Virus record (IMG/VR): IMGVR_UViG_2737471865_000005
Location: 1-7,343 of that record
Length of the DNA stretch: 7,343 nt
From: a virus
Lineage: Duplodnaviria > Heunggongvirae > Uroviricota > Caudoviricetes
Reading direction: 5' to 3' (one strand)
Shown here: piece by piece, positions 1,008 to 7,269 of the stretch
Layout of the letters: every line of letters starts with the position of its first letter
Numbering within the stretch: position 1 is the stretch's first letter
Program-made: the position numbers and the translations under genes
The notes under the pieces: model-generated
The model's input: only the letters and a program-made list of their open reading frames with translations
Database searches by the model: none
What the model was told of the DNA's origin: nothing

Positions 1008-1861
1008 GCACCATCCTGAAATGGGCGGGAAATAAAACCGCCATTATGTCCGAACTGAAAAAGCATCTTCCTGCTGGCCCGCGACTGGTTGAACCTTTCG
1101 CGGGTTCCTGTGCAGTGATGATGGAGACGGAGTACCCCAGCTATCTTGTTGCGGATATTAATCCTGATTTAATCAACCTCTATAAAAAGGTTGCTGCTGA
1201 TTGTGAATCATTTATATCTCGCGCCAGAGTTTTATTTGAGATCGCAAACAGGGAGGTAGCTTATTACAACATAAGGCAGGAGTTTAATTACTCAACTGAG
1301 ATTACTGATTTCATGAAAGCGGTATATTTCCTGTATCTCAATCGTCACGGTTACCGTGGTTTATGTCGCTATAACAAGAGCGGGCATTTCAACATTCCCT
1401 ACGGTAATTATAAAAATCCGTATTTCCCTGAAAAAGAAATTCGCGCATTTGCAGAAAAAGCCCAGCGAGCAACGTTTATCTGCGCCAGCTTTGATGAAAC
1501 GCTGGCGATGTTGAAGGCGGGGGATGTGGTGTATTGCGATCCGCCGTATGACGGTACGTTTTCCGGCTATCACACTGATGGTTTCACTGAAGATGACCAG
1601 TATCACCTGGCATCCGTTCTTGAACATCGGTCATCAGAAGGACATCCGGTCATTGTTTCTAACAGTGACACATCCCTGATCCGTTCGCTGTATCGCAATT
1701 TTACTCACCACTATATCAAGGTAAAACGCAGCATCGGTGTGGCAGCTGGCGAGGGTAAATCAGCAACAGAAATCATTGCTGTTTCCGGGCCGCGCTGCTG
1801 GTTGGGATTTGATTATTCGCGTGGCGTGGATAGTTCTGCCGTGTACGGAGTGCGTGCATGA
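1004..1861 (+). CDS. dam: DNA N6-adenine methyltransferase, Dam-like (about 285 aa from the ATG at 1004; the track ORF extends upstream to 944)
   Basis: N-terminal motif I region ([11 protein letters not shown]) followed later by the catalytic DPPY motif ([12 protein letters not shown]), the order seen in Dam-type (alpha-class) adenine methyltransferases. GGAGGTG Shine-Dalgarno at about 994-1000 precedes the ATG at 1004. The stop overlaps the GpA start (ATGA at 1858-1861). Confidence 0.9.
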
Positions 1862-4245
1862 GCCATGCTGATATGAACAACTGCAGCGGCTTTAACGAGG
1901 CCGCCGCAGCATTCTCATGGAACAGCCCGAAAAAGGCTATTAACCCTTATCTGGACCCGGCGGAAGTTGCGCCGGTTTCTGCGCTTTCAAACCTGATCAC
2001 TCTGTACGCTGCCGATAACGAGCAGGAACAACTGCGCCGCGAGGCACTGAGTGATCAGGTCTGGGAGCGTTATTTCTTTAATGAATCCCGTGATCCTGTC
2101 CAACGCGAAATGGAGCAGGATAAGCTCATTAGCCGGGCAAAGCTGGCGCATGAGCAGCAGCGTTTTAATCCGGACATGGTCATACTGGCGGACGTTAAAG
2201 CCCAGCCCTCCCATATCAGCAAGCCGCTGATGCAACGTATTGAATACTTCAGCAGCCTGGGCAGGCCAAAGGCTTATTCCCGCTATTTGCGTGAGACGAT
2301 TAAGCCATGTCTGGAACGACTGGAGCATGTACGCGACAGTCAGCTATCCACTTCTTTTCGCTTTATGGCAAGCCATGAAGGGCTGGACGGCCTGCTGATC
2401 CTGCCTGAAATGAGTCAGGATCAGGTGAAACGCCTGTCTACTCTTGTCGCTGCGCATATGAGCATGTGTCTTGATGCCGCTTGTGGTGATTTGTACGCCA
2501 CCGATGATGTTAAGCCAGAAGAAATCCGCAAGACATGGGAAAAGGTGGCAGCAGAAACCCTGCGACTGGATGTCATACCGCCTGCGTTTGAGCAACTCCG
2601 CCGGAAAAGAAACCGCCGTAAACCCGTACCCTATGAACTCATTCCGGGTTCGCTGGCGCGTATGTTGTGCGCCGACTGGTGGTATCGGAAATTATGGAAG
2701 ATGCGTTGCGAATGGCGGGAAGAGCAGTTGCGTGCTGTTTGCCTGGTCAGCAAAAAAGCATCTCCCTATGTCAGCTATGAAGCCGTGATGCATAAACGTG
2801 AGCAGCGCCGTAAGTCGCTGGAGTTTTTCCGTTCTCATGAACTGGTGAACGAAGACGGCGACACGCTGGATATGGAGGACGTGGTAAACGCCAGTAGTAG
2901 CAACCCGGCGCATCGCCGCAATGAGATGATGGCATGTGTTAAAGGTCTGGAGCTTATCGCGGAAATGCGCGGTGACTGCGCCGTTTTCTACACCATCACC
3001 TGTCCGTCACGTTTCCATTCCACGCTAAATAACGGCAGGCCCAACCCAACCTGGACAAATGCGACGGTAAGACAAAGCAGTGATTATCTGGTCGGCATGT
3101 TTGCTGCATTTCGTAAGGCGATGTACAAAGCCGGATTGCGCTGGTATGGCGTGCGGGTGGCTGAGCCGCATCATGACGGTACAGTTCACTGGCACCTGTT
3201 GTGTTTTATGCGCAAAAAAGATCGCCGCGCCATTACTGCTTTGTTGCGTAAGTTTGCCATCAGTGAAGACCGCGAGGAGCTGGGTAATAACACAGGACCA
3301 CGCTTTAAGTCTGAGCTGATAAACCCGCGCAAAGGTACGCCAACAAGCTACATCGCGAAATACATCAGTAAGAACATTGACGGGCGTGGTCTGGCTGGCG
3401 AGATCAGCAAGGAAACGGGTAAATCCCTGCGTGATAACGCTGAATACGTTAATGCCTGGGCGTCTCTTCATCGTGTTCAGCAATTCCGCTTCTTTGGCAT
3501 TCCGGGGCGTCAGGCTTACCGTGAACTGCGATTGCTGGCTGGTCAGGCGGCAAGGCAACAGGGGGACAAAAAAGCAGGTGCGGCGGTACTGGATAACCCA
3601 CGCCTTGATGCCATCCTGGCTGCTGCTGATGCTGGTTGTTTTGCCACCTACATCATGAAGCAGGGCGGCGTACTGGTTCCCCGCAAATATCACCTCATCA
3701 GAACCGCTTATGAAATCAACGAAGAGCCGACCGCCTATGGCGATCACGGCATTCGTATTTATGGCATCTGGTCACCCATTGCAGAGGGCAAGATCTGCAC
3801 TCATGCAGTGAAGTGGAAAATGGTTCGTAAGGCCGTTGACGTTCAGGAGGCTGCAGCCGACCAGGGCGCTTGCGCCCCTTGGACTCGTGGCAATAACTGT
3901 CCCCCTGTTGAAATTTTGAACCAATCAGGGGGCGAATTACCAGAAACCGAAGAAACTGACGCGCTGCCGGACCTTCACGATCTGAGTGCGAAGGAACGGC
4001 GGGAGCTGACAGCCAGGCTGAGGCTGGTAAAACCGAAACGGCGGAAAGGGTACAAACAGGAAGTTAACGAGCAGCAGCGCCAGCAGCTCGACGCTGAGTT
4101 GAGGTCCAGAGGGTTTGAAGCGAGTGAAACAGAGGTGGATCTGCTTTTACGTGGCGGCAGCATTCCGTCCGGGGCCGGGCTGCGCATTTTCTACCGCAAC
4201 CAGCGGCTACAGGAAGATGATAAATGGCGGCAGTGGTATTCGTGA
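1858..4245 (+). CDS. A: Rolling-circle replication initiation endonuclease, P2 GpA-like (795 aa)
   Basis: Size close to P2 gpA. Contains an HUH-type metal-binding motif (TVHWHLLCF) and a downstream Tyr-x3-Tyr pair (YIAKYISK), as expected for the HUH nickase superfamily. Follows Dam as in 186-like phages. In P2 the origin lies inside the A coding region, so an ori probably lies within this CDS, but I cannot position it. Confidence 0.92.
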
Positions 4246-4334
4246 GTATCGTCTGAATATTCCTGTTTGGTGATCCCATCAGAGGTATCTGATTGAAATT
4301 GAAAAAAGGGTTTTACAAATAGAAATCTCTTCTA

Positions 4335-4354
4335 TACTGTATATATAAACAGTG
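4335..4354 (+). promoter_or_regulatory. LexA operator (SOS box) within a putative SOS-regulated promoter
   Basis: TACTGTATATATAAACAGTG matches the E. coli LexA consensus TACTGTATATATATACAGTA at 18 of 20 positions, including the CTGT-N8-ACAG core. It sits in an AT-rich intergenic region about 50-65 nt upstream of the next + strand ORF, overlapping candidate -10 hexamers (TATACT/TATATA), with TTGAAA/TTTACA-like -35 candidates upstream. Confidence 0.75.
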
Positions 4355-4401
4355 GATATACATACAGTTATGTTTGTCCAGTAGTAGTGATAGGAGGGAA
4401 A

Positions 4402-4590
4402 ATGCAGGATTACCTTTTGGAGTCTTTGAAGCTCCAGCGCATTGATTTTTTTATCAAGCTTGTAGCGGCTAGCGAGTGTGATGATGCAGAAAAGCAGCTG
4501 GCTCTTCAGTGGGCTTCTGAGTTGACCGATGAGCTGATGGCGAAAATTCGTAGCCATGAATACAGCCGATCAATGGATATTTCCAGTTAG
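4402..4590 (+). CDS. Small SOS-module protein (62 aa from the ATG at 4402), possibly the N-terminal portion of a Tum-like antirepressor
   Basis: AGGAGG Shine-Dalgarno at about 4392-4397 with the ATG at 4402. First gene after the LexA box, at the position tum occupies in phage 186. Followed 8 nt later, in another frame, by a DinI-like ORF; the two together total about 140 aa, close to the roughly 146 aa I recall for 186 Tum. Confidence 0.55.
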   Translation: MQDYLLESLKLQRIDFFIKLVAASECDDAEKQLALQWASELTDELMAKIRSHEYSRSMDISS

Positions 4591-4598
4591 GGGTCCCT

Positions 4599-4832
4599 AT
4601 GCGAATTGAGATAATGATCGATAAAGAGCAAAAGATTAGCCAGGTAACCTTGGACGCTCTGGAGTCCGAGCTTTACCGCAACCTGCAGCCCATCTATCCA
4701 AAGACAGCTATTCGCATCCGTAAAGGGTCGGCAAACGGCGTTGAGCTGAGTGGCTTAAAGCTTGATGAAGACAAAAAGCGGGTAATGGAAATTATGCAGC
4801 AGGTTTGGGAAGACGACAGCTGGCTGCACTGA
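4599..4832 (+). CDS. DinI-family protein (77 aa); may correspond to the DinI-like C-terminal half of a Tum-type antirepressor
   Basis: Aligns by eye with E. coli DinI along its whole length (MRIE start, DAL..EL segment, K-E/D-D-K-K/Q-R, EI(L/M)QxxWE near the C-terminus). Lies in the LexA-controlled module. Confidence 0.85.
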   Translation: MRIEIMIDKEQKISQVTLDALESELYRNLQPIYPKTAIRIRKGSANGVELSGLKLDEDKKRVMEIMQQVWEDDSWLH

Positions 4833-4936
4833 GGAACGTTGCTGGCGGCAGGACTTGATACTGACGCCAGCAAGGTTGAACAACGAGCGGGGCGAGGCGT
4901 TAGCCCATCATTGGTACTTTATAATGGTTTTGTTAT

Positions 4937-5923
4937 CTATAATTGCAGAATGTTTTTAATTCTCACAATCGATTCATCAAAAGTATCAGCTATGTGGTAA
5001 ATGTTCTTTTTGCTCAAGCTATTAACCCAGGTGATAGTAGATTCTTTATCCTTGTCTACTATGTAGACGTCGGCTGAAGTTTTTTCAATTTCAGACCAAA
5101 TATGCTCATCATTTGGATTTATTTTAAGTCCAATAATGAATATCTTGGATGAACGTTCAACCTCAGAACGAAACTCTTCCTGCTGATACTTAACAAATGA
5201 GGGGCAGTGCAATACGCTTTTTTTGGGATGATATAATGCAACTGCGGGTGAGAGGGCAGAATCACTTTCGCAGTATGCAATCACGTCTTGCTCATCGTTG
5301 TAAATATCAATTGAACCATCGAATATTGCAGAGTTCTCGCAATCAGGTAATTCGAAATCGATATTAACGATATTTGCAACTGGTATGAAGTTTACTGAGC
5401 CATGTATTTTTAATACCGGTATGTTATTTCTATTGCGCTTCGATGAGTGATATTGAACAAGACAGCCAACAGAGCATATAGCTTGTTCAATTAATAGGTC
5501 GTAATTAGTTGTTGCCATACATATGTTTTTTCTTTTTTTTAATAGGTTAAACAGTTTTATGTAGGTGTTTCCTTTCTCGACCCGAAATTGTGCAAGATAG
5601 GCGCACATCTGCTTTAGGAGGTGAGTTGTCTCGCAATTTCGTTCATTGAAAAAATTAATCATTCCTTGTTCAGGATCTGCAATGAAACTCTCCAATAGAG
5701 CGCCATCAATAGTTGAAGCAACTCCACCTTTTTCACGCATGCGGATAAGCAGATCTTTACCAAGAGGTGGATTGGATGGACTACATGGACCGCTGCCAAA
5801 ACTCGCACCTGCGCCAAATAAAAATAGAACTGCCATATATCCTCCGAAATATGAGTATTTATGAATCATTTTCCTCAATTTCTGCCACAAAGGATATAGT
5901 GGGGCAAAGGAATTGTGCTGCAT
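4937..5923 (-). CDS. SIR2 (sirtuin)-like family protein, candidate NAD+-consuming anti-phage defence protein (328 aa as the longest ORF; alternative starts give 310 or 299 aa)
   Basis: Glycine-rich NAD-binding motif FLFGAGASFGSG (GAGxS type), a TTNYD motif resembling sirtuin TQNID, and KIHGS about 34 residues later, where defence-type SIR2 domains carry the catalytic His. The gene is markedly AT-rich (about 30-37% GC in the 60-nt lines I counted, against about 50% in the flanking phage genes). Start is ambiguous: the ATG near 5836 is preceded by GGAGGA, the ATG near 5869 by GAGGA, and the first ATG (5923) has no obvious Shine-Dalgarno. Confidence 0.8.
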   Translation of the reverse strand: MQHNSFAPLYPLWQKLRKMIHKYSYFGGYMAVLFLFGAGASFGSGPCSPSNPPLGKDLLIRMREKGGVASTIDGALLESFIADPEQGMINFFNERNCETTHLLKQMCAYLAQFRVEKGNTYIKLFNLLKKRKNICMATTNYDLLIEQAICSVGCLVQYHSSKRNRNNIPVLKIHGSVNFIPVANIVNIDFELPDCENSAIFDGSIDIYNDEQDVIAYCESDSALSPAVALYHPKKSVLHCPSFVKYQQEEFRSEVERSSKIFIIGLKINPNDEHIWSEIEKTSADVYIVDKDKESTITWVNSLSKKNIYHIADTFDESIVRIKNILQL

Positions 5924-5973
5924 GACTATGCCGCATGAATCCGCATGATCGTTTGAGGATCGTTTTAGCTGAG

Positions 5974-6000
5974 GCCCGCCAGGAATGGCGGGCTTTTGCT
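5974..6000 (+). terminator. Putative rho-independent terminator, + strand orientation
   Basis: Perfect 8-bp GC-rich inverted repeat GCCCGCCA / TGGCGGGC around a GGAA tetraloop, followed directly by TTTTGCTT. The T-run is only on the + strand side. Confidence 0.5.
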
Positions 6001-6043
6001 TATGTCATGCAGGCGCATGAAAACCACTACATAAAGCGGGCAG

Positions 6044-6062
6044 GCGTGGCGGGGATACGAGC
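6044..6062. other. Candidate cos site (cohesive-end region) of a P2/186-like phage
   Basis: GGCGTGGCGGGGATACGAG shares its first 13 nt with the 186 cohesive end as I recall it (GGCGTGGCGGGGAAAGCAT) and is close to the P2 version (GGCGAGGCGGGGAAAGCAC). It lies between the SOS/cargo region and the portal gene, where cos is expected. Relies on recalled sequences. Confidence 0.5.
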
Positions 6063-6150
6063 GCGCGCAATGGGGTAAAATGGCCAAAATCCGGAGCAGC
6101 CTCTGGCCCGCTGGCGGCCTCATTTTGTGTAGGAGGGAAAATGTCAGGAC

Positions 6151-6183
6151 AAAAAAACGCCCCGCAGAATGCTGCTGGGGCGT
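6151..6183 (-). terminator. Putative rho-independent terminator of the late packaging (P-Q) transcript
   Basis: On the - strand, about 40 nt downstream of the portal stop codon: GC-rich hairpin (ACGCCCCGCAG / CTGCTGGGGCGT with one bulge) followed by a run of seven U (A7 on the + strand at about 6151-6157). Confidence 0.6.
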
Positions 6184-6219
6184 TGTGAGAATTGGTCAGT
6201 TATTGATGTTGTGAGTATG

Positions 6220-7269
6220 TCAGCCTCGTTTGCTCTTAAGTCCTAAGTCATAGGCTTCAAAACGGATCACCTCTTCACCAAGCCAGTTGTTAAGCTCCTG
6301 CAGTCGCTTTTGCAGTGGCATCAGTTCATTGCGGACGAAAACACGGCTCGCCTTTTCCACATCACCGAAGCCGCCAGTGTTGTTGGGAATGATACCCATC
6401 ATTTGCGGCGGTACGCGGTGTGCCGCCATCATGTCGTCCCGACTCACGTTCTTGATGTTCAGAAATTCATCTTTCGCTGCGACTTCTGACAACGGGATGA
6501 TCTGAAGCCCGTCCTTTTTGCCGTTAGGCGAGTACATAAACAGGTTACGGAAGTTACCAGGACCTTTGGCACTTTTCATCGCGTTGCGGAGATTGTTCAC
6601 ATCCTCCTGATTCTGCGCTGCATCGGTCATGTACATGATGAAGCCAGCATGACTGCCGTTAATGTAATACTTTCGACGGAACAGCGTGGCGGACTCGTTG
6701 AGCAGGGCGGATGGAATGGCAGAAAGGTAACCTGGCAGACCATAAATCTCCTGGTTGATATCCGGCTCCATCAGGTGGAAGACGTTACCTTTTGTGAACT
6801 GATACGGCTGTGTCGTCAGGCTGTATTGCACAAACCAGTATGTTTCAAGGTCAAGCCCGCGCCGGGTGTATTTTGCCAGTGCAGGCTCCAGCGAAATAAC
6901 TTCACCGAACCGGTTCGTGCGCTTCTCCAGGTAGCCGTTACCAAAAACCAGATAGTCCTGCACAAAACGGGTAAATGCCTGCTGACTGAGAAGACGATGC
7001 GGAATATAGGTACTGCTGATAATGTCACGCTTAACACTGATGGGGGAGCTGTGATGCACGGCGGCGCGGAAGGTTCGCGCCAGGCCGTCAAAACTCACTG
7101 GCGGCTCATACCAGCGATCTGTCTGTACGCATTCCACATAGTCCAGCAGTTCGCGGCGGTCCAGAACAGGAACAGGATCGCCAAAGCTGAAAGCCTCTGC
7201 TGTTGGGCCATTGCCTGGTTTTGAATTGTGATCAGTTGTTGCTCGCTTATTATTTCTACGTTTGCTCAT
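6220..7269 (-). CDS. Q: Phage portal protein, P2 gpQ-like (349 aa)
   Basis: Full-length ORF of the size of P2 portal protein (about 344 aa), with N-terminal region resembling gpQ as I recall it (basic N-terminus, then AEAFSFGDP.PVLDR...RWYEPPVSF.GLARTFRAAVHHSS). Positioned next to cos and transcribed towards it, as in P2/186. Confidence 0.92.
   Translation of the reverse strand: MSKRRNNKRATTDHNSKPGNGPTAEAFSFGDPVPVLDRRELLDYVECVQTDRWYEPPVSFDGLARTFRAAVHHSSPISVKRDIISSTYIPHRLLSQQAFTRFVQDYLVFGNGYLEKRTNRFGEVISLEPALAKYTRRGLDLETYWFVQYSLTTQPYQFTKGNVFHLMEPDINQEIYGLPGYLSAIPSALLNESATLFRRKYYINGSHAGFIMYMTDAAQNQEDVNNLRNAMKSAKGPGNFRNLFMYSPNGKKDGLQIIPLSEVAAKDEFLNIKNVSRDDMMAAHRVPPQMMGIIPNNTGGFGDVEKASRVFVRNELMPLQKRLQELNNWLGEEVIRFEAYDLGLKSKRG

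What the first reader, a model, noticed from the sequence alone, without database searches (positions are those of the whole stretch)
4937..5923. Standalone SIR2-like gene in the P2-type defence hotspot between the SOS module and cos
The only - strand gene between the replication/SOS region and cos encodes a roughly 300-328 aa protein with the three hallmark sirtuin-fold motifs (GAGAS glycine loop, TTNYD, and a His-Gly about 34 residues further on). The Asn-to-His spacing resembles defence-associated SIR2 NADases (ThsA, DSR-type) more than housekeeping deacetylases, and no zinc-ribbon Cys cluster is apparent. The gene is strongly AT-rich against a roughly 50% GC phage backbone, pointing to horizontal acquisition. 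It occupies the locus where P2 carries old/tin and where P2-like prophages are known to swap anti-phage systems. Known SIR2 defence proteins are usually either much larger (DSR1/DSR2) or paired with a partner (ThsB, HerA, pAgo/APAZ). A compact single-gene SIR2 with a roughly 130-150 aa C-terminal extension of unknown fold and no visible partner may be a minimal or previously undescribed NAD-depletion abortive-infection module. Its C-terminal region is a candidate phage sensor.
Basis: partly seen in the sequence, partly recalled or inferred. Interest (0 to 1): 0.85.

Follow-up and report, generated by a model that had tools for sequence, protein, structure and literature searches.

The report
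Bare SIR2-domain gene in P2 defence slot
A P2-like prophage carries, exactly where phage P2 keeps its old/tin anti-phage genes, a single 299-residue gene that is one immune-type SIR2 (NAD-cleaving) domain with no partner; it is a plausible but untested anti-phage gene of a kind already known from AbiH and similar proteins.

Summary

The gene is a clean 1,014-bp, AT-rich (37.8% vs 50.3% GC) cassette. It sits in the same position and orientation as P2 old. Only 4 of 108 E. coli genomes sharing the flank carry it. No partner gene recurs in 43 loci, and dN/dS is 0.11-0.14.

The family is large (632 clusters at E<=1e-30), uncharacterised and missed by PADLOC. The concept is not new: AbiH and "sole-Sir2" are single-gene SIR2-fold defences. 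Most likely it is a NAD+-depleting abortive-infection or exclusion protein, but this is untested. It is a new member of a known kind, of moderate interest.

The parts
4937..5836 (-). CDS of the 299-aa single-domain SIR2 (SIRim-type) protein; the stop codon is 4937-4939.
5837..5923 (-). 5' region that the mechanical ORF reads as 29 extra codons; probably untranslated leader or promoter. The Shine-Dalgarno GGAGG is at 5841-5845.
   Evidence: Sequence read. Family members lack this extension. No consensus sigma-70 promoter was found.
5801..5815 (-). Codons for G8-A-G-A-S12, the NAD-binding glycine loop after beta-1.
   Evidence: G8, G10, A11 and S12 are invariant in 32 family members.
5498..5512 (-). 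Codons for T109-T-N111-Y-D113, the nicotinamide/ribose pocket motif (sirtuin 'QNxD' equivalent).
   Evidence: N111 and Y112 are invariant and D113 is at least 90% conserved. This motif aligns to TTNYD of solved SIR2-HerA SIR2 chains.
5396..5404 (-). Codons for H145-G-S147, the catalytic histidine motif.
   Evidence: K143, H145, G146 and S147 are invariant. It aligns to KIHGS of 8yhx_G.
5294..5389 (-). Codons for residues 150-181: a variable, indel-prone insert at the place of the sirtuin zinc ribbon. This is the candidate specificity surface (inference).
   Evidence: Highest column entropy (2.09 family-wide; 1.42 in enterobacterial alleles against 0.43-0.93 elsewhere), indels after residues 153 and 168, and a local pLDDT dip to 79. 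pN is about twice that of the rest of the gene.
4940..5203 (-). Codons for residues 212-299: three beta-alpha units completing the Rossmann sheet, with invariant G236, D243, H245, I246, W247, W270 and F286.
   Evidence: Secondary structure of the model, conservation, and whole-chain structural alignments.
4905..5918 (.). The 1,014-bp cargo cassette: the SIR2 gene plus 32 bp on its 3' side and 82 bp on its 5' side. It is absent as a clean indel from Escherichia phage vB_EcoM-813R9.
   Evidence: blastn breakpoints at window 4904/5919 correspond to L003 5411/5419. 108 E. coli genomes share the right flank but only 4 hold the gene.
5919..6070 (.). Conserved backbone block between the cassette and the Q-side slot. 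It contains cos, a GC hairpin (5967-6000) and two tandem 11-nt GATC-containing repeats (5947-5968).
   Evidence: 86-92% identical in phages that lack the gene; repeats.
6043..6061 (+). cos cohesive-end equivalent (GGCGTGGCGGGGATACGAG).
   Evidence: Aligns column for column with the annotated P2 cosR 33575-33593.
6151..6182 (-). Hairpin plus T7 run after the portal stop codon, equivalent to P2 terminator tQ. It insulates the SIR2 gene from late PQ transcription (inferred).
   Evidence: Sequence read; P2 tQ is annotated at the same relative place.
4599..4832 (+). DinI-like gene, the left neighbour, convergent with the SIR2 gene. It is followed by a 17-nt-arm hairpin at 4835-4877.
   Evidence: PGAP annotation of the matching E. 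coli A38 prophage region (100% identical over window 4880-6000); inverted repeat I1.
6220..7269 (-). Portal gene (gpQ), the right boundary of the hotspot.
   Evidence: ORF list; annotations.
1858..4245 (+). Replication endonuclease gpA, the left boundary of the hotspot as defined by Rousset et al. 2022.
   Evidence: ORF list; annotations; PMC9122126.

Best explanation
The gene encodes a 299-residue protein that is nothing but one immune-type SIR2 ('SIRim') domain. It is carried as a self-contained, horizontally acquired cassette in the old/tin position of a P2/186-like prophage.

Most likely the lysogen expresses it from its own upstream region. The protein would stay catalytically silent until a superinfecting phage triggers it. 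It would then cleave NAD+ to ADP-ribose and nicotinamide, using Asn111/Asp113 and His145, so that the infected cell stops supporting phage growth (abortive infection or superinfection exclusion).

Shown: the fold, the intact catalytic motifs, the single-gene status, the cargo-slot position, the variable occupancy of the slot and purifying selection.

Inferred: NADase chemistry, a defence role, and the mode of activation. There is no sensor domain or partner, so I infer that sensing is done by the SIR2 domain itself. The likely route is the variable insert at residues 150-181 and/or a change in oligomeric state, as in the filament- or ring-forming SIR2 enzymes ThsA, KomC, Avs5 and FAM118B.
For: Fold and motifs:
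- AF2 model pLDDT 94.1, pTM 0.91.
- Foldseek top hits are E. coli SIR2-HerA SIR2 chains.
- GAGAS, N111, Y112, H145-G-S are invariant and D113 is at least 90% conserved.
- There is no Zn ribbon. Published defence SIR2 proteins also lack the zinc finger (PMC11472057).

Family:
- 29 of 32 members hit Pfam SIR2_2.
- 632 50%-identity clusters at E<=1e-30, almost all 290-330 aa and matched end to end.

Single gene:
- No neighbour cluster is shared beyond closely related phage backbones in 43 loci.
- No family occurs in more than 2 of 148 chromosomal neighbours.
- No RNA family or tandem repeat lies in the cassette.

Location:
- The cassette is a clean 1,014-bp indel.
- It has the same strand as P2 old, and its ATG is 207 bp from cos against 195 bp for old.
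- gpA-gpQ is an experimentally established defence hotspot (PMC9122126; PMC13586616).
- Related phages carry Hypoth_Ymh or RT cargo instead.
- Only 4 of 108 flank-bearing E. coli genomes hold the gene.
- Alleles at 99, 71, 71 and 51% aa identity sit in the same slot.
- A second, unrelated prophage type carries the family in its moron region beside umuDC-like genes and tail-fibre genes.
- Two Flavobacteriales genomes have it directly after a Type III restriction enzyme.

Selection: dN/dS is 0.11-0.14 among hotspot alleles.

Precedents for single-gene SIR2-fold defence: AbiH and sole-Sir2.
Against: - No experiment exists for any member of this family that I could find.
- PADLOC does not recognise it; the best hits are E about 1e-5 for the window protein and 1.7e-9 family-wide. 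NCBIfam has no model.
- Chromosomal neighbourhoods outside phages are mostly housekeeping genes, with only occasional defence genes. The defence-island signal therefore rests mainly on prophage slots.
- No homolog occurs in 50,697 deposited phage genomes.
- No consensus promoter was detected upstream.
- The closest solved relative has only minimal NADase activity without its HerA partner (PMC11472057). A partner-less version therefore needs an activation mechanism for which I have no direct evidence.
- The same catalytic residues would also serve ADP-ribosyl transfer or deacylation.
Confidence: 0.55

Rival explanations
1. It is a NAD+-dependent protein modifier rather than a bulk NADase. It would act as an ADP-ribosyltransferase or deacylase on a specific phage or host protein, either to block infection or for lysogenic conversion.
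Against: The zinc ribbon is absent; the zinc finger has been suggested to be essential for sirtuin deacetylase activity (PMC11472057). The best structural matches are NADase-type defence SIR2 proteins. The usual SirTM operon partners (macrodomain, GcvH-L, as I recall them) are absent from the cassette.
Confidence: 0.12
2. It is a prophage moron unrelated to phage defence, for example one that tunes host NAD metabolism or stress physiology for the lysogen.
For: Many chromosomal homologs sit among housekeeping genes with no defence genes nearby. No known defence model recognises the protein. Function is untested.
Against: It occupies exactly the old position of an experimentally validated defence hotspot. 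It shows presence/absence polymorphism and the gene is far more diverged than the backbone (72% vs 88-91% nt). Its fold belongs to the SIR2 branch that holds all known antiphage SIR2 proteins.
Confidence: 0.13
3. It is an effector that needs a partner encoded elsewhere, such as a host or prophage HerA-like ATPase or a signal-producing enzyme, or it is an orphaned remnant of SIR2-HerA.
For: The closest structures are SIR2 subunits of SIR2-HerA. These are nearly inactive alone. SIR2_2 + DUF87 (SIR2-HerA) cassettes are known cargo of the same P2 hotspot (Rousset Table).
Against: There are 632 clusters of intact, full-length, single-domain proteins under purifying selection. No HerA-like or other neighbour recurs in 43 loci from many phyla. 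The protein has no N-terminal extension before beta-1. There is no ligand-binding SLOG or Macro domain.
Confidence: 0.12
4. It is a counter-defence gene: a phage enzyme that destroys NAD-derived immune signals or otherwise protects the P2-like phage from host immunity.
For: It is phage-borne, and NAD-related chemistry sits at the centre of several defence and counter-defence pairs (general knowledge).
Against: The gene is oriented and placed like old/tin, which are expressed in the lysogen. The family also occurs in non-phage chromosomal contexts, including directly downstream of a Type III restriction enzyme. It is absent from all 50,697 deposited phage genomes.
Confidence: 0.04

Closest known systems
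AbiH (lactococcal/streptococcal abortive-infection protein; Pfam PF14253)
   Same: It is a single gene and essentially a single SIR2-like ('sirim') domain. It is carried on mobile elements and is a validated phage defence with unknown mechanism, for which NAD depletion has been proposed (PMC13064643, PMC12322248, preprint 10.1101/2024.09.18.613514). A family member (P0060) aligns collinearly with most of the AbiH profile.
   Different: The window protein does not hit the AbiH model at E<=1. Only 1 of 32 members hits at E<=1e-3, and the best score is 21.8 bits against a cutoff of 30.9. No PADLOC AbiH model matches. The hosts differ (Proteobacteria and others rather than Firmicutes). No profile-profile or tree test could be run because I held no AbiH sequences.
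SIR2 subunit of SIR2-HerA / Nezha (PDB 8w9l, 8yhx, 8sub, 8j4u)
   Different: There is no HerA/DUF87 gene in the window or as a recurring neighbour. The protein is shorter (299 vs 360-430 aa) and has no N-terminal extension. Sequence identity is only 14-18%. The Asn-His spacing is 34, against 49 (PsSIR2 N163/H212) and 61 (8yhx).
sole-Sir2 (CRISPR-supervised single-gene system; bioRxiv 10.1101/2024.12.27.630466)
   Same: It is a small single-gene SIR2 defence candidate. The protein converts NAD+ to ADPR in vitro, and a homolog protects E. coli from T2 and T4.
   Different: It is about 440 aa, with an extra N-terminal module proposed as the sensor and a C-terminal DSR2-like SIR2 domain. Here the SIR2 fold starts at residue 3 and fills the whole chain. 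Sequence relationship was not tested because no sequence was held.
ThsA (Thoeris), KomC (Kongming), DSR1/DSR2, SIR2-STAND (Avs5), SIR2-APAZ/pAgo
   Different: All have a fused sensor or regulatory domain (SLOG/Macro, a large C-terminal domain, STAND) or obligate partner genes (ThsB, KomAB, pAgo). None of these is present here.
P2 Old and Tin (lysogenic-conversion exclusion genes)
   Same: Same slot, same strand and nearly the same distance from cos (ATG 207 vs 195 bp). All are non-essential cargo next to gpA and its downstream small gene (DinI-like here, orf91 in P2).
   Different: The proteins and mechanisms are unrelated: Old is annotated as an exonuclease that blocks lambda growth, and Tin blocks T-even phages. 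The promoter region sequence is not conserved (about 50% identity).
Classical sirtuin deacylases (CobB, Sir2Af, SIRT1-7)
   Different: There is no Cys4 zinc ribbon. There is no hit to the classical SIR2 Pfam model at E<=1. The Asn-His spacing is 34, against about 17 in classical sirtuins (from memory, not tested here).

Membership tests
SIR2 superfamily (sirtuin fold) | Rossmann fold with a six-stranded parallel sheet and a helical insertion after beta-1 | tested here: met
SIR2 superfamily (sirtuin fold) | NAD-binding glycine loop (GAGxS) and the catalytic Asn/Asp ... His-Gly set | tested here: met
   G8, G10, A11, S12, N111, Y112, H145, G146 and S147 are invariant and D113 is at least 90% conserved in 32 members. 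They align to TTNYD/KIHGS of solved SIR2 chains.
Classical sirtuin deacylases (CobB/Sir2/SIRT) | Cys4 zinc-ribbon module in the small domain | tested here: not met
   There is no CxxC motif. Nine Cys residues are present and only C18 and C189 are conserved.
Classical sirtuin deacylases (CobB/Sir2/SIRT) | Match to the classical SIR2 Pfam model | tested here: not met
   Only SIR2_2 appears among Pfam hits at E<=1.
Pfam SIR2_2 (PF13289) / 'SIRim' immune-type SIR2 | Score above Pfam's gathering threshold | tested here: inconclusive
   The window protein scores 23.6-23.8 bits against a cutoff of 24.5, matching only residues 107-149. 29 of 32 family members match at E<=1e-3, with a best E of 7e-7. 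Many homologs carry a precomputed PF13289 hit. Structural ranking places it with immune-type SIR2 proteins.
SIR2-HerA (Nezha / Gao_19) | Adjacent HerA (DUF87) ATPase gene in the same operon | tested here: not met
   The cassette 4905-5918 holds one gene. No recurring neighbour was found in 43 loci. PADLOC SIR2 models hit only at E about 1e-5 over about 35 residues.
Thoeris ThsA | SIR2 fused to a SLOG or Macro ligand-binding domain, with a TIR-domain ThsB gene | tested here: not met
   The protein is a single domain of 299 aa. The ThsA model hits at E = 0.0068 only. No TIR gene lies in the window.
DSR1/DSR2 | Large (about 1,000 aa) protein with a C-terminal sensor domain after the SIR2 domain | tested here: not met
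   The protein is 299 aa and the SIR2 fold occupies the whole chain. Family members are 290-330 aa.
AbiH (PF14253) | Match to the AbiH profile above its threshold | tested here: not met
   The window protein has no hit at E<=1. 1 of 32 members hits at 2.3e-4. The best score is 21.8 bits against a cutoff of 30.9. No PADLOC AbiH hit was found.
AbiH (PF14253) | Single-gene, single SIR2-like domain architecture on a mobile element | tested here: met
   the description of AbiH comes.
sole-Sir2 | About 440 aa with an N-terminal non-SIR2 module followed by a DSR2-like SIR2 domain | tested here: not met
   Beta-1 of the SIR2 fold starts at residue 3 and there is no N-terminal module. Sequence similarity was not tested.
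P2 gpA-gpQ defence-hotspot cargo | Located between gpA and gpQ of a P2-like phage, with variable occupancy among relatives | tested here: met
   Gene order, clean indel, 4 of 108 genomes with the flank carry it, same position as P2 old, and the hotspot defined in PMC9122126.
Abortive-infection NADase defence systems | Phage protection and NAD+ depletion that depend on the catalytic Asn/His | not testable with these tools
   This needs cloning, phage challenge and NAD+ measurement.

The most novel reading that the evidence does not exclude
A bare SIR2 domain acts as a complete one-domain immune system. It would detect a phage component directly, through the hypervariable insert that replaces the sirtuin zinc ribbon (residues 150-181). 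It would then switch itself on by a change in oligomeric state, with no sensor domain, partner protein or second messenger. This would also suggest how the long-unexplained AbiH works.
Probability: 0.3. Interest if true: 0.6.

Novelty: new member of a known kind. Interest (0 to 1): 0.4.

Why it matters
If it protects against phage, this would add a widespread family to the defence catalogue. The family has about 630 clusters at 50% identity across many phyla, and current tools (PADLOC, NCBIfam) miss it.

It would also be the smallest kind of SIR2 immune protein, a catalytic domain with nothing attached. That makes it a convenient model for how SIR2 NADases are held off and switched on. The same question is unanswered for AbiH, which has been known since 1996.

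The natural series of alleles in one phage slot (99, 71, 71 and 51% identity), differing most in one insert, gives a ready-made specificity-swap experiment.

If it does not protect, it is an ordinary prophage moron.

Tried and rejected
- NCBIfam gave no hit. PHROGs gave only a weak match to an unknown-function family (phrog_2695, E 4e-5).
- The sigma-70 promoter scan of 4550-6300 found none. I could not assign a promoter by eye either.
- A search for cos using the phage 186 cos sequence I recalled from memory found no match within 3 mismatches. cos was then located with a 12-mer and by alignment to the annotated P2 cos.
- The accessions WP_140442209 and WP_059342955 were not found in the Rousset 2022 supplements. 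Those files are truncated in the library, so this says nothing. Their cloned P4 'SIR2' (pFR88) is a different protein.
- Searches for PDC-S21/S25 literature, for 'SIR2-only' or standalone SIR2 and for DefensePredictor + SIR2 found no description of this family.
- PADLOC on 19 selected neighbours gave only a Type III REase and one weak DrmA-like hit.
The BFVD viral library gave only distant sirtuins.
- tblastn against 50,697 phage genomes gave no match.
- Rfam and tandem-repeat scans for an RNA antitoxin or repeat array in the cassette found nothing.
- I considered a degenerate SIR2-HerA remnant and rejected it, because the family is large, intact, constrained and never next to HerA.
- I considered the C-terminal third as a sensor domain and rejected it from the structure.
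- I could not run hhalign against AbiH, sole-Sir2 or PD-T7-2 because I held no sequences of them.
Full report
**1. The observation**

A minus-strand ORF runs from 5923 to 4937 (328 aa). It is the only gene between the DinI-like gene (4599-4832, +) and the portal gene (6220-7269, -).

The translated product is almost certainly shorter than 328 aa:
- A canonical GGAGG lies 4 nt upstream of the ATG at 5836.
- All close and distant homologs begin at that methionine with M-x-x-L-F-L-F-G-A-G-A-S.
- PGAP annotates a 299-aa product (WP_140442209.1, 'hypothetical protein') in E. coli A38, which is 100% identical to the window over 4880-6000.

I therefore take the CDS as 4937-5836 (-), 299 aa.

In an alignment of 32 family members (35-71% identical to the window protein), G8, G10, A11, S12, N111, Y112, K143, H145, G146 and S147 are invariant and D113 is at least 90% conserved. 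N111 to H145 is 34 residues. There is no CxxC motif, and only two of nine cysteines are conserved.

The CDS is 37.8% GC (GC3 34%), against 50.3% for the rest of the window (GC3 57.5% in gpA, 58.3% in portal).

**2. What the protein is**

Sequence profiles alone are weak:
- Pfam SIR2_2 scores 23.6 bits, just under the 24.5 cutoff, and covers only the NYD-to-HGS stretch.
- PADLOC gives only marginal hits to 'SIR2', PDC-S25 and PDC-S21 models (E 1e-5 to 3e-4).
- NCBIfam gives nothing.

Structure settles the question. An AlphaFold2 model built on the family alignment has mean pLDDT 94.1 and pTM 0.91.
- Foldseek against the PDB puts the SIR2 subunits of E. coli SIR2-HerA first (E 1e-9), followed by classical sirtuins. 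The alignments exceed 300 columns.

The secondary-structure order is as follows:
- beta-1 at 3-7, helices at 26-99, then strands at 105-109 and 138-143;
- a mixed insert at 150-211;
- three beta-alpha units at 212-299.

This is a complete sirtuin-type Rossmann fold with a helical insertion. The whole chain is one SIR2 domain.

It carries invariant G236 and D243-x-H245-I-W247. It is not a separate domain, and nothing marks it as a sensor.

The least conserved part is residues 150-181, where classical sirtuins have the zinc ribbon:
- Mean column entropy is 2.09 family-wide.
- Among enterobacterial alleles it is 1.42, against 0.43-0.93 for the other regions.
- Indels fall after residues 153 and 168, and local pLDDT dips to 79.

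**3. The family**

An exhaustive profile search of 1.84 billion representatives found 2,760 hits at E<=1e-3, 1,108 at E<=1e-10 and 632 at E<=1e-30. The best 150 are nearly all 290-330 aa and match end to end. This is a sizeable, coherent family with a fixed single-domain architecture. It occurs in Gamma- and Betaproteobacteria, Acidobacteriota, Bacteroidota, Verrucomicrobiota and others.

Public names are 'hypothetical protein', 'SIR2-like domain protein' or 'SIR2 family protein'. The exact window protein is on 77 contigs and a near-identical one on 131. A few strains carry split fragments.

29 of 32 members hit SIR2_2 weakly, and no PADLOC model does better than E = 1.7e-9.

**4. Partner genes**

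I took 43 loci with full-length homologs (29 from genomes, 14 from viral contigs). I extracted flanking ORFs within 4 kb and clustered them.
- The only cluster present everywhere is the SIR2 family itself.
- The next clusters occur in at most 5 loci and are phage backbone genes.
- Among 148 chromosomal neighbours, no Pfam or PADLOC family occurs more than twice, and many are housekeeping genes.
- Rfam and tandem-repeat scans find no RNA element in the cassette.

The gene is therefore genuinely standalone. Outside phages the defence-island signal is modest. The clearest case is a Type III restriction enzyme ending 1-2 nt before the homolog in two Flavobacteriales genomes.

**5. Genomic setting**

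The window is a 186/P2-like (Peduoviridae) prophage. The gene order is CI, CII, Fil, gpB-like, Dam, gpA, a 62-aa ORF, DinI-like, [SIR2, -], cos, gpQ, gpP.

Compared with Escherichia phage vB_EcoM-813R9, homology runs to window 4904 and resumes at 5919, only 8 bp further on in that phage. The SIR2 gene is therefore a clean 1,014-bp cassette at 4905-5918.

The next 152 bp (5919-6070) are conserved backbone and contain cos. Window 6043-6061 aligns column for column with the annotated P2 cosR.

In P2 itself the order is A(+), orf91(+), tin(-), old(-), with the old-tin transcript starts about 150 bp inside cosR. The old ATG and the SIR2 ATG fall within 3 alignment columns of each other, 195 and 207 bp from cos, on the same strand. 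The gene therefore sits exactly where old sits. The promoter sequence itself is not conserved (about 50% identity).

A hairpin plus T7 run at 6151-6182 corresponds to P2's tQ terminator.

The slot is variable:
- 108 complete E. coli genomes share the 82-bp right flank, but only 4 carry the gene: two at about 100% and two at 72% nt identity.
- Related phages carry a Hypoth_Ymh protein or a reverse-transcriptase pair instead.
- Alleles at 99, 71, 71 and 51% aa identity occupy the same slot in P2-like viral contigs.
- In E. coli 2017-02-1CC the backbone is about 88% identical but the gene only 72%.

The gpA-gpQ interval is an experimentally established defence hotspot (Rousset et al. 2022, PMC9122126). 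[quoted passage not shown]

A second, unrelated prophage type (L052-L059) carries the family in its moron region, beside UmuC/UmuD-like genes and after tail-fibre genes. No deposited phage genome (50,697 records) encodes a detectable homolog.

**6. Selection**

Among hotspot alleles where dS is not saturated, dN/dS is 0.11-0.14, so the gene is functional. Non-synonymous divergence in the 150-181 insert is about twice that of the rest (0.19-0.20 vs 0.08-0.10). It stays below pS, so there is faster change but no proof of positive selection.

**7. How it most likely works**

Shown: an intact immune-type SIR2 fold with all NAD-pocket residues, no zinc module, a single gene, an old-equivalent cargo position, and purifying selection.

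Inferred: the lysogen expresses the protein. It is kept inactive, and a superinfecting phage activates it to hydrolyse NAD+, giving abortive infection or exclusion.

There is no sensor domain, partner or ligand-binding module, so sensing must reside in the SIR2 domain. The variable insert is the best candidate surface. A change in oligomeric state is the best-precedented switch: ThsA, KomC, Avs5 and FAM118B structures are helical or filament assemblies, and SIR2-HerA SIR2 forms rings.

One caution applies. The closest solved relative is autoinhibited and nearly inactive without HerA (PMC11472057), so how a partner-less version is activated remains unexplained. I put 0.55 on the defence-NADase reading.

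The rivals are a protein-modifying sirtuin (0.12), a non-defence moron (0.13), a trans-partner or orphan effector (0.12), and counter-defence (0.04).

**8. Comparison with what is known**

The idea of a compact, partner-less SIR2-fold defence gene is not new.
- AbiH is a single-gene lactococcal Abi cloned in 1996 and validated again in S. thermophilus. It is predicted to have a sirtuin-like fold and is listed among the 'sirims' with ThsA, Dsr2, PD-T7-2 and pAgo-associated SIR2. Its mechanism is unknown.
- 'sole-Sir2' is a single protein of about 440 aa with NADase activity, and a homolog protects against T2 and T4.

The present family is neither. The AbiH profile does not detect the window protein, and reaches only 21.8 bits against a cutoff of 30.9 in the most similar member. 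sole-Sir2 has an extra N-terminal module that this protein lacks. The family fails the defining features of SIR2-HerA, Thoeris, DSR and pAgo systems, which are partner genes or fused domains.

I therefore file it as a new, uncharacterised family within a known kind (single-gene immune-type SIR2 proteins), not as a member of any named system.

**9. Verdict**

- Novelty: new member of a known kind.
- Interest: moderate (0.4). It is a good, cheap experimental candidate, and a minimal model for how a bare SIR2 domain is switched on. A specialist would not find it very surprising.

Noticed in passing
window 4905-5918 vs 6071-6219; L003 5570-6929; L004 5341-6184 and 6332-8493: The gpA-gpQ 'hotspot' is two sub-slots on either side of cos. 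SIR2 sits on the gpA side, like old/tin. The Hypoth_Ymh gene of vB_EcoM-813R9 and the hypothetical + reverse-transcriptase pair of Klebsiella phage 4LV2017 sit between cos and gpQ. In the window that Q-side slot is empty and holds only the tQ-like terminator. 4LV2017 also has about 840 bp of unrelated DNA in the SIR2 slot.
   Followed up: partly
window 5947-5968 (+): Two tandem 11-nt direct repeats, each starting with a GATC Dam site (GATCGTTTGAG / GATCGTTTTAG). They lie in the conserved cos-proximal block just upstream of the cassette. This phage encodes its own Dam methylase. They could be a terminase or regulatory site.
   Followed up: no
window 5967-6000 and 4835-4877: Two GC-rich hairpins. 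One lies in the conserved block and is followed by TTTTGCTT on the + strand, so it is terminator-like for rightward transcription. The other has 17-nt arms and lies right after the DinI-like stop codon. Neither is part of the cassette.
   Followed up: no
L052-L059 (viral contigs), e.g. L054 5317-6824 and 8943-14157: A second, non-P2 prophage type carries the same SIR2 family. It lies next to UmuC (IMS family) and UmuD-like genes, just beyond tail-spike and tip-attachment-J genes, which is a typical moron region.
   Followed up: partly
L019 4946-7987 and L020 4946-7984: In two Flavobacteriales MAGs a Type III restriction enzyme (PADLOC REase_III, E 4e-302) ends 1-2 nt before the SIR2 homolog. 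This suggests co-transcription within a defence island.
   Followed up: partly
L048 6342-7762 (-): One P2-like contig with a 71% allele has two extra ORFs (360 aa, and 112 aa with a weak DrmA-like PADLOC hit at 3e-7) between the portal gene and the SIR2 gene. This may be stacked cargo in the Q-side slot.
   Followed up: partly
cluster of the window protein: P0269/P0270, P0272/P0275: Some strains carry the gene split into 193-aa and 114-aa pieces on the same contig. These are occasional pseudogenised copies among more than 200 contigs with intact ones.
   Followed up: no
L035-L038, L040, L041, L043/L045, L042/L044: There are several other families of short (268-401 aa) standalone SIR2-like proteins sharing the G-A-G / NYD.LIE / HGS motifs. 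One (L038, 370 aa) hits both SIR2_2 and AbiH over its full length but below threshold. Short single-domain immune-type SIR2 proteins seem to be a broad, poorly charted group.
   Followed up: partly
L001 11388-12095 (E. coli A38 prophage, outside the window): PGAP annotates an extra 'terminase large subunit domain-containing protein' (235 aa) between the portal gene and the terminase ATPase gene. It is absent at that place in the other P2-like loci examined.
   Followed up: no
window 4200-4500: A second GC dip (about 40%) lies just after gpA. Here a 92-aa minus-strand ORF (4279-4557) overlaps the annotated 62-aa plus-strand ORF (about 4400-4588). Only the plus-strand gene is annotated in relatives.
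   Followed up: no
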